From: Hydrolagus colliei
Lineage: Eukaryota
DNA: 64,000 nucleotides
Assembly (NCBI GenBank): GCA_035084275.1
Contig: CM068756.1
Coordinates: 9,300,001-9,364,000 of the forward strand
Direction of reading: 5' to 3'
Under the pieces are notes generated by a model. The model saw nothing but the letters and a program-made list of their open reading frames with translations. It made no database searches and was not told the origin of the DNA. Made by a program: the position numbers and the translations under genes. Below are positions 18,451 to 20,569 of this stretch, piece after piece; the first letter of the stretch is position 1; every line of letters begins with the position of its first letter.

Positions 18451-19810
18451 CGTACTGCTGCATCCCATGTACTGCTGTAAAGCAGAAGATATGTTGTGTT
18501 ATAATTGCATTGTGGCATTTATTAACAATGTTCAAATATGATCTCCATGAATATTTCTTCTCCAATTTTCTCCCGTTTCCTCAAGGTATTGAGTACAGTT
18601 CTTCAAGCACTGTTCCCCTATTGTCAAAATTACCATTATTCATCATAAATAAGCCTCAACCGTCAGTATTGGCTGACTATTTGAATGTGGGAAGAGTGCA
18701 TCTCAGTCAAGCTGGATCCTATCCCTACACAAAATCCTTAGAAATGTATGAGCTTTCCAGCAGGACTTACTGCATAGGCATAAGGAGCAAGGATTTGGGA
18801 TATCTTTCCTCCTCTCAAACGCAGGGCTGTTTAGCCAATTCTACCTCTGCTATTGATGTTTTTGTTGATTCCCCCCATGATGCTGCAGCCAAAATCAACA
18901 GATAAAGCAGAAAGACTTCTGATATGTATAGTTTATGGCTGTCTTGTGAAGTGTTGTTATGCAATCTGTGGAATAAGCTGAGTGTTATCCATCGCATAAT
19001 TAAAAAAGGACATTGGCATTCAAAGTCTAATTAAATCTACAGAATGTCATTTCTTTCTAATTATTTTATACAATTAAAGTAATTGTGTCTCAGTGTTAAT
19101 AAGGGTATCTGCTTACCAATATTTTGGACTCCTTACCAACGATGACTGTCAAGTGCCACCAGCAAAAAGAAATGAAGTGAAAGTATCCCACAAACTCAAG
19201 TTATAAAGAATAATGAGGGAGGCGTGGGGGAGACAGAGGTAGTTAAGATTTCAATGAGAATTACAAATTGATTGAGGTTTGTTTTAGCTGTTTAAATCTC
19301 ATCCTGAATCCCCGAATGAGAATACTGGTTAGAATTGCTTAGGCTGACAACATGGGTTTTTCAGGATAATTTTACTGGCCATTCGGTTTGCAGATCTTTC
19401 AAATCATTTTTGTACAATAGCCAAAGTGATGTGGCGCAGTACGCAGGTGCTGCTATTATGTTCTCAGTTCCGCCACCTTTCTTATTTGGTTTATTCCATT
19501 TTAAGCCTCCTCTCCGTGCATGATGCATACATGAAAATAAGTCATAACTTGACTTATTTTCAAGTTGCCACCAACTAATTCCTAAAAGGCTCAGGAGATG
19601 GAGGAAGGGTGTAGCTCCACTGAATTCCCCCTTCTGTCCTTGTTGGGCAGATATCTCGTACTCCCTGAGATAAAAGCCGAACTTCGGCTTGATGCAAACA
19701 ACCACATGATCAGTCACCATCTTGCCATCCCTCTAGCAACAATCGGCTTAGCTCAGTTTGTCTCAGAGGGAGACTCAGCTGGGTCTAGGCTTTGTCCCAC
19801 TGGTACTTAC

Positions 19811-19822
19811 AGAGTTGAAGTC
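19811..19822 (-). CDS. sowah: 12-nt coding microexon of Sowah (GAC TTC AAC TCT = DFNS)
   Basis: Minus strand reads tactaatcccttcacaatgtgctcctag|GACTTCAACTCT|gtaagta: perfect donor, branch point TACTAAT, in frame after ...ASKK. It supplies exactly the D-F-x-S/T that follows KR in intronless SOWAH paralogs (KRDFxxGFTALHW). Confidence 0.82.
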
Positions 19823-20569
19823 CTAGGAGCACATTGTGAAGGGATTAGTAGTTTTTCCACACACCATTGTGGAGACGGGTAGCAAGGAGGGAAACAGAAA
19901 AAAAAGAGAAAGGACAAGATGTAATTGATTTGGTTTAGTGGACAATGACTTGTGTATCATAGCAGGGTAAGTTAGGGGAGAAAACAAAAGACTTGGGCCA
20001 CCAAGGAGCAAAGTGCCTTTCTTACAAGAGGTGGCAGAAACGTAAATTCATCTATTACAATTTTTTTTAAAAAGAGGAATAAATCATAGGATGTCAAGAT
20101 TCAGCAGCAATTTCCTTTGTAGCTCTTCGTTTTTACATTTGCACTACAATCGCAGATTACCTGATTATTGATTTAACCTCTTAAGCACTGAGAGAGTTCA
20201 GAACATAGCTCATGCCTTGTGCCTCCAACTGACCCAGTCCCATTCTGCTTTCCGACCCAGTTAGAACACATTATATGGTAATTTTATGGCAGGGTCACAT
20301 CATTTTGTAATTGTATTAAATCAGCAATAACTAACTGAAACAATCTAATTACAAAAATTATTTTGCCTGAGGTTAACGTGCACAATTCTTCAAAACTCTT
20401 CCATGTTAAATGGAAGAGATTTAAGAACACAGAAGGTTAACCTCGAGTGCAACTTGAACCTGGAGTAATGTCCCACTAATATAATCAGGAGGCCAGTGAT
20501 ATAATGTCTGGTTTTGCAAGCATAGCCATGGAGGGTGAGAAAAATCATTATCTTAACAATACATAACGA

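What the first reader, a model, noticed from the sequence alone, without database searches (positions are those of the whole stretch)
19801..19950. 12-nt microexon (DFNS) inside the ankyrin region with SRRM4-type splice architecture
Seen: consensus donor GTAAGT, a UGC at -9 to -7 from the acceptor, branch point TACTAAT with the A at about -23, and a 124-nt AG-free zone (19825-19948). Known: UGC close to the 3' splice site plus a strong donor and a long AG exclusion zone is the signature of SRRM3/4 (nSR100)-regulated neural microexons. Inference: skipping would remove 4 residues in frame from the loop before the TALHW ankyrin helix, a potential tissue switch in binding. Automated annotation probably misses this exon.
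Basis: partly seen in the sequence, partly recalled or inferred. Interest (0 to 1): 0.75.

Follow-up and report, generated by a model that had tools for sequence, protein, structure and literature searches.

The report
Ancient microexon chain in Sowah gene
A 12-base stretch with good splice signals, in an ankyrin-repeat (Sowah) gene of a cartilaginous fish, is very likely a real exon and the first of three tiny exons (12, 3 and 3 bases) predicted to build one binding loop of the protein; flies have the same layout, and control by the nerve-cell splicing factors SRRM3/4 is plausible but untested.

Summary
The host is the intron-containing Sowah gene of a cartilaginous fish, likely a chimaera; elephant-shark RefSeq models already carry DFNS. 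Together they spell DFNS-G-F, the loop before the TALHW helix, whose exon lies outside the window. Drosophila sowah has annotated 12, 3, 3 and 6-nt exons in the same order, so the layout is likely ancestral to bilaterians. The scan found this chain before on other DNA (e1-7593382). On regulation: the DFNS and Phe acceptors are two of only 3 of 7808 AGs carrying the SRRM3/4-type code. Transcript-derived proteins of this paralogue skip all or part of the chain (3 of 3), those of the sister paralogue include all of it (21 of 21). No RNA reads were laid, so neural control is unproven (about 50%). New member of a known kind.

The parts
50044..50106 (-). 63-nt coding exon of the Sowah gene (acidic linker), phase 0
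   Evidence: 21 of 21 residues identical to C. milii XP_007887669; donor GTAAGT
34764..34886 (-). 123-nt coding exon, first ankyrin helices, ends in KK; a second acceptor 21 nt inside at 34865
   Evidence: 37 of 41 residues identical to C. milii, 38 of 41 to Heptranchias; ankyrin features
19825..19948 (-). 124-nt AG-free zone holding a distal pyrimidine tract (best 20-mer 19 of 20 pyrimidines at -81) with TCTC/CTCT words
19844..19850 (-). predicted branch point TACTAAT, branch A at 19845 (-23)
19829..19831 (-). UGC at -9 to -7 of the acceptor
   Evidence: background 23% of AGs
19811..19822 (-). 12-nt microexon, DFNS, phase 0
   Evidence: same four residues after KK in C. milii RefSeq isoforms X1, X2, X3, X5
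19805..19810 (-). donor GTAAGT of the 12-nt exon
16225..16227 (-). likely 3-nt microexon GGG (Gly): AAG acceptor, GTAAGT donor, distal pyrimidine tract; no UGC or CUAAY nearby
   Evidence: only GGN candidate with a GTRAGT donor between the DFNS and Phe exons; about 0.008 expected by chance in that interval; fly has a 3-nt Gly exon at this rank
12760..12935 (-). 176-nt AG-free zone before the Phe exon, with GACTAAC (branch A at -26) and TGC at -15 and -36
12755..12757 (-). 3-nt microexon TTT (Phe), CAG acceptor, GTAAGT donor
   Evidence: fly has a 3-nt Tyr exon at this rank

Best explanation
The 12-nt segment has exon splice signals and encodes DFNS in an intron-containing Sowah gene; it is very likely the first of three microexons (12, 3, 3 nt) that would be spliced in series to write DFNS-G-F, the predicted finger loop of the ankyrin repeat, and in this paralogue their inclusion is likely optional and likely promoted by SRRM3/4. 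Shown: the splice signals, the reading frame, the match to orthologous proteins, the same exon sizes and order in Drosophila annotation. Inferred: the exons are too short for ordinary exon definition, so long AG-free zones, CUAAY branch points and GTAAGT donors secure them; UGC words before the 12-nt and Phe exons would let SRRM3/4 raise inclusion in neurons or endocrine cells. Predicted: full skipping shortens a 9-residue loop to 1 residue and leaves the helices in place, so it would change binding rather than unfold the domain. My odds by step: real exon 0.97; 12-3-3 chain as placed 0.85; alternative inclusion in this paralogue 0.7; SRRM3/4-driven neural bias about 0.5.
For: Pattern unique in the window, 0 of 100 shuffles. 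DFNS follows KK in C. milii isoforms. Of 7808 AGs on both strands only 3 combine an AG-free zone of 100 nt or more, a near TGC and a CTAAY branch; two are the DFNS and Phe acceptors, and the third has no GTRAG donor within 150 nt. PMC8797185 describes this code as largely unique to eMIC-dependent exons rather than general to short exons (passages). Fly sowah: FlyBase exons of 12, 3 (Gly), 3 (Tyr) and 6 nt in that order (PMC8042270 Table 4 rows). Logan-assembled proteins, inferred to come from RNA: this paralogue 2 of 3 lack all six residues and 1 of 3 has DFIT+G; sister paralogue 21 of 21 carry DFTSGF (by cluster 0 of 2 against 11 of 11 complete, Fisher p 0.013). AlphaFold2 on two pikeperch isoforms: loop 217-225 with the exons, 1 residue without, similar confidence.
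Against: No RNA from this species or tissue was examined. The three Logan proteins come from 2 clusters of bony fish with unknown tissues. The motif is complete in Nematostella (PMC2674049 file 5), while the eMIC domain arose in bilaterian ancestors, so the residues are ancestral parts of the domain, not a neural add-on. The sister paralogue seems to include all three always. The fly eMIC table lists only a 46-nt sowah exon. Four vertebrate microexon papers' supplements name no sowah (some files unsearched, gene names may differ). The best branch point is at -23, closer than the 45-47 nt median of neural microexons. The donor's exon part is non-consensus. The Gly candidate has no UGC. Partial forms in annotation are unreliable: the sister paralogue shows 56 partial or empty models of 119 although all 21 Logan proteins are complete.
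Confidence: 0.5

Rival explanations
1. The three microexons are structural and meant to be constitutive; they are relics of ancient introns kept because the Sowah introns hold Iroquois enhancers, and skipped forms in this paralogue are splicing noise in a weakly constrained bystander gene.
For: Motif conserved to Nematostella; 21 of 21 Logan proteins of the sister paralogue complete; an intronless-type paralogue carries the whole motif (P0145; its single-exon status is inferred); Sowah was lost beside Irx in tetrapods (PMC5803294 passage); this paralogue has longer branches in teleosts.
Against: SRRM3/4-type code before two of the three exons; none of the 3 Logan proteins of this paralogue is complete.
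Confidence: 0.3
2. The exons are regulated, but by other factors or in non-neural tissues, and the UGC words are incidental.
For: TGC precedes 23% of all AGs; the Gly candidate has none; UGC is found in only 74-79% of SRRM3/4 targets and does not predict sensitivity (bioRxiv 2024.09.17.613571 passage); fly chain not in the eMIC table.
Against: The joint signature is rare (3 of 7808) and falls on two chain members.
Confidence: 0.17
3. The 12-mer is a chance intron sequence.
For: No read evidence was obtained.
Against: 0 of 100 shuffles give the pattern; it encodes exactly the four residues of the elephant-shark orthologue.
Confidence: 0.03

Closest known systems
Drosophila sowah (CG10632) microexons, FlyBase; PMC8042270 Supplementary Table 4
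   Same: Same gene family; exons of 12, 3 (Gly) and 3 (aromatic) nt in the same order, separated by kilobase introns.
   Different: The fly 12-mer encodes another tetrapeptide if read in phase 0, and Tyr for Phe; the 6-nt exon lies beyond this window; fly inclusion levels were not seen.
Callorhinchus milii SOWAHC-like LOC103176098 (XP_007887669-76)
   Same: Orthologue; 21 of 21 and 37 of 41 identical residues in two exons; DFNS+G in isoforms X1, X2, X3, X5.
   Different: None of its models includes the Phe exon found here.
SRRM3/4 (eMIC)-dependent neural microexons
   Same: 3-27 nt, frame-preserving, long AG-free zone, UGC near the acceptor, CUAAY branch, UCUC words.
   Different: Residues are ancestral core of the domain; branch point close; three exons in series; tissue bias untested.
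Other vertebrate 3-nt or serial microexons: RPS24 (3, 18, 22 nt), cytohesin-1, MAP4K5
   Same: Single-codon or consecutive tiny exons occur in vertebrates (search listing and abstract starts only).
   Different: Here two single-codon exons follow each other and the layout is shared with insects.
Intronless SOWAHA-D retrogenes of tetrapods (Maeso et al. 2012, not readable here; seen through PMC5803294)
   Same: Same ankyrin region; the motif is complete in the intronless-type protein seen (P0145).
   Different: No introns, so no possibility of skipping.

Membership tests
SRRM3/4-dependent neural microexons | 3-27 nt and frame-preserving | tested here: met
   12 nt, phase 0
SRRM3/4-dependent neural microexons | long AG exclusion zone | tested here: met
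   124 nt; 6 of 3864 AGs reach 120
SRRM3/4-dependent neural microexons | UGC between branch point and AG | tested here: met
   -9 to -7 with branch A at -23; background 23%
SRRM3/4-dependent neural microexons | strong CUAAY branch point and UCUC-rich pyrimidine tract | tested here: met
   CTAAT at -23; TCTC/CTCT at -87, -86, -53; the tract lies upstream of this branch point
SRRM3/4-dependent neural microexons | branch point pushed far from the AG (median 45-47 nt) | tested here: not met
   best motif at -23 against PMC12871342; the true branch point is not mapped
SRRM3/4-dependent neural microexons | strong 5' splice site | tested here: inconclusive
   intron part consensus, exon part TCT; 7 of 11 matches; no MaxEnt score available
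SRRM3/4-dependent neural microexons | neural-biased inclusion | not tested
   no reads were laid; Logan proteins carry no tissue label
SRRM3/4-dependent neural microexons | inclusion depends on SRRM3/4 and the UGC | not testable with these tools
   needs mutant RNA-seq or a minigene
Intron-containing Sowah genes | Sowah-type ankyrin region | tested here: met
   E 5e-15 to C. milii and Heptranchias SOWAH-like proteins; groups with one of two fish paralogues, 95/86 support via its C. milii orthologue
Intron-containing Sowah genes | multi-exon gene with large introns | tested here: met
   introns of 15157, 14941, 3583, 3467 and more than 12754 nt
Intron-containing Sowah genes | 12-3-3-6 microexon layout as in fly | tested here: inconclusive
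   12 and Phe exons well supported, Gly exon likely, 6-nt exon outside the window
Intron-containing Sowah genes | linkage to an Iroquois cluster | not testable with these tools
   no genome held; the window lies inside the gene
Intron-containing Sowah genes | N-terminal winged-helix domain (PF25877) | not testable with these tools
   present in the orthologue; its exons are outside the window

The most novel reading that the evidence does not exclude
After the vertebrate duplication, one Sowah paralogue turned an ancient, always-included 12-3-3 exon chain into an SRRM3/4 switch that builds the ankyrin finger codon by codon (up to eight loop variants, complete mainly in neurons), while its sister paralogue and the retrogenes lock the loop in.
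Probability: 0.3. Interest if true: 0.7.

Novelty: new member of a known kind. Interest (0 to 1): 0.42.

Why it matters
It gives exact coordinates for a chain of tiny exons whose layout is shared by flies and cartilaginous fish, although PMC8797185 reports that neural microexon programmes are almost wholly rewired between the two lineages. Two consecutive one-codon exons kilobases apart are a hard case for exon definition. Two paralogues that seem to differ in skipping make a direct test of how a structural microexon becomes a regulated one. It also shows that Sowah gene models and isoform lists at this junction are unreliable.

Tried and rejected
Search for the TALHW exon in the window by six-frame motifs, degenerate DNA and tblastn: not found. 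No genome held, so no look beyond the window. Pfam and PDB sequence searches with the 34-residue exon alone: nothing. Sequencing runs: no RNA holder listed; 20 rows hold part of 19000-20600, distant organisms only at small shares; none was laid, so this is no evidence, and tissue inclusion and flank conservation stay open. Other Gly candidates rejected: 22634 lies upstream of DFNS; 19664 and 16396 have poor donors, 4 of 11 matches. No 6-nt His/Asn-Gly exon downstream of the Phe exon in the window. RNA folding of the three acceptor regions: z 0.94, -0.04, 0.64, nothing special. RefSeq isoform variety was considered as proof of mix-and-match splicing and rejected, because the sister paralogue shows the same variety in annotation but not in 21 Logan proteins. 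A search for long invertebrate Sowah proteins gave 4 family members among 17 hits. Literature: sowah+microexon and sowah+micro-exon gave 0 papers; sowah1/sowah2/ankrd43/CG10632 gave nothing on these exons in the 30 of 47 listed; Maeso et al. 2012 is not held and may already describe them. Look-ups of earlier findings by place and by sequence were blank.

Full report
Observation. The feature is on the minus strand. The exon is 19822-19811 and reads DFNS; the AG-free zone is 19825-19948 (124 nt); TGC is at -9 to -7; TACTAAT has its A at -23; the donor is TCT|GTAAGT. The pattern AG-GAYTTYNNNWSN-GTRAG occurs once in the window and in 0 of 100 shuffles. AG-free zones of 120 nt or more are rare (6 of 3864 minus-strand AGs); a near TGC is common (888 of 3864). 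The donor's intron part is consensus and its exon part is not (7 of 11 matches to a recalled consensus).

Host gene. A splice-site scan with rough recalled frequencies found an exon ending in ...AAGAAG at 34764. It matches SOWAH-like proteins of Callorhinchus milii and Heptranchias perlo at 88-93%. tblastn places two ordinary exons in the window, 50106-50044 and 34886-34764. They are 21 of 21 and 37 of 41 identical to the C. milii protein, against 14 of 21 and 38 of 41 for Heptranchias, so the animal is a cartilaginous fish, likely a chimaera (inference). A 24-row tree splits the intron-containing fish Sowah proteins into two groups (support 95/86); the C. milii orthologue of this gene falls in group G1. 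Neither the N-terminal exons nor the TALHW exon is in the window. PMC5803294 and PMC2674049 (passages) describe Sowah/CG10632 as linked to Iroquois clusters and replaced by retrogenes in tetrapods; PMC12311624 (passages) says its introns hold Irx enhancers in fly. Linkage could not be tested here.

The exon is already annotated in the orthologue. C. milii RefSeq isoforms X1, X2, X3 and X5 read KK-DFNS-G; X4 and X6 lack DFNS, as do two UniProt models, and the Heptranchias model stops after KK. None has a Phe after the Gly.

Two more exons. Homologues read KK, then nothing, DFxS, DFxS+G, DFxS+F, DFxS+G+F, G alone or F alone, then TALHW. This predicted two one-codon exons downstream. A scan found CAG-TTT-GTAAGT at 12757-12755, with a 176-nt AG-free zone, a GACTAAC branch at -26 and TGC at -15; the bare pattern occurs once, against a mean of 0.12 in shuffles (12 of 100 shuffles had one). 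For Gly, the pattern HAG-GGN-GTRAGT occurs twice (shuffle mean 0.15); only 16227-16225 lies between DFNS and Phe, where about 0.008 is expected. It has an AAG acceptor, a 30-nt AG-free zone (119 nt if a GAG is ignored), a distal pyrimidine tract, and no UGC or CUAAY, so it is less secure. Introns measure 14941, 3583, 3467 and more than 12754 nt.

Age of the layout. Supplementary Table 4 of PMC8042270 lists FlyBase exons of Drosophila sowah of 12 nt, 3 nt (Gly), 3 nt (Tyr) and 6 nt, in that order on the gene (rows seen; sowah is absent from the main text, and was found by name in 1 of 8 supplementary files). In the alignment of PMC2674049 file 5 (passages) Nematostella has the whole motif, while the arthropod and amphioxus models shown lack 5-6 residues at this place. 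The layout is therefore likely ancestral to bilaterians (inference). An earlier agent of this scan reported the same 12-3-3-6 chain in another genome (e1-7593382); I had found the Phe exon before seeing it.

Protein effect. AlphaFold2 was run on two RefSeq isoforms of the pikeperch G1 gene. With DFVSGF (219-224), a 9-residue loop joins helices 212-216 and 226-233 at pLDDT 88-89; the fold matches ankyrin and DARPin structures. Without the six residues, helices 212-216 and 218-227 are one residue apart at pLDDT 87-95 (that isoform also lacks one Gly at the next junction, and its alignment held only skipped forms). The Pfam ankyrin model starts at the Gly (position 2 at residue 223). The chain thus encodes the inter-repeat finger; that this finger lines the binding groove is recalled knowledge of ankyrin repeats. 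Skipping is predicted to remove the finger and keep the helices.

Regulation, for. PMC8797185 (passages) gives the eMIC code as long AG exclusion zones, UGC near the 3' splice site, UCUC-rich tracts and CUAAY branch points, largely unique to eMIC targets. Only 3 of 7808 AGs in the window have a zone of 100 nt or more, a near TGC and a CTAAY within 50 nt; two are the DFNS and Phe acceptors (thresholds chosen after seeing the exons). Among Logan proteins, inferred to come from spliced RNA because they cross many exon borders on contigs of 1.2-4.3 kb, G1 shows no microexon in 2 of 3 and DFIT+G in 1 of 3, while G2 shows DFTSGF in 21 of 21. By cluster this is 0 of 2 against 11 of 11 complete (p 0.013). 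Left out of that count: the window query, one unrelated 57-residue member and 13 non-Sowah ankyrin hits. Groups were set by a motif rule with five rows set by hand; members were listed for only 5 of the 11 G2 Logan clusters, one of them 15 of 23.

Regulation, against. No reads were laid, so there is no tissue evidence. The three G1 Logan proteins are from bony fish. The residues are ancestral domain core, present in a cnidarian, whereas the eMIC domain is bilaterian. The fly eMIC table names only a 46-nt sowah exon. Supplements of PMC9303857 (12 of 18 files), PMC12626424 (12 files), PMC12626420 (12 of 13) and PMC7821500 (8 files) do not name sowah; zebrafish gene names may differ. The best branch motif is at -23, nearer than the 45-47 nt median in PMC12871342 (passages). 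UGC occurs in 74-79% of SRRM3/4 targets and donor strength matters most (bioRxiv 2024.09.17.613571, passages; its supplements are closed). Annotated isoforms cannot prove mixing: G2 has 56 partial or empty models of 119 although its Logan proteins are all complete; in G1, 29 of 91 non-Logan rows lack all six residues and 33 carry DFx with or without G and F, and low expression could cause such gaps.

Verdict. The exon is very likely real and part of a known, ancient Sowah layout. I commit to serial splicing of a 12-3-3 chain that is optional in this paralogue and likely promoted by SRRM3/4 (0.5), against constitutive structural exons with noisy skipping (0.3), other regulators (0.17) and chance (0.03). 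It works like an SRRM3/4 microexon by sequence, but membership is not established. Searches for sowah with microexon or micro-exon found no paper; Maeso et al. 2012 could not be read and may describe these exons. Serial or 3-nt exons are known from RPS24, cytohesin-1, MAP4K5 and homothorax (listing and abstract starts only). PMC5010895 and PMC3342872 (passages) added only the Irx-Sowah context. Novelty: new member of a known kind. Interest 0.42.

Noticed in passing
window 34886 and 34865, minus: Two in-frame acceptors 21 nt apart on the exon before the chain; G1 proteins use the outer one (SLFQRLQ), and some salmonid G2 models show an optional insert at the same place.
   Followed up: no
window 25049-24996, minus: Intron stretch 89% identical in translation to the alternative last exon of C. 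milii isoform X6, but with an in-frame stop here; likely conserved non-coding sequence.
   Followed up: partly
window 18150-18400 and about 12 other places, e.g. 61865-62105, 54043-54280, 6237-6438: Dispersed repeat family of 100-250 nt, 72-84% identical, on both strands, SINE-like; it accounts for several long AG-free zones.
   Followed up: partly
homologous proteins P0222-P0227 and others; outside the window: At the next junction (KS to GYT) proteins carry nothing, H, G or HG; two Logan proteins show H only. Fly has one 6-nt exon there, so the one-residue variants are unexplained.
   Followed up: no
window 12152-12150, minus: CAG-GCA-GTAAGC with a 64-nt AG-free zone and TGC, 600 nt after the Phe exon; no homologue shows an Ala there, probably chance.
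   Followed up: no
window 51092-51050, minus: Strong acceptor and moderate donor around 43 nt with an open frame, not matched by the C. milii protein.
   Followed up: no
P0024, P0036, P0044, P0106, P0196: The sister paralogue with the same junction variants persists in caecilians, a newt cluster, lungfish and coelacanth, so loss of intron-containing Sowah does not appear complete in amphibians.
   Followed up: no
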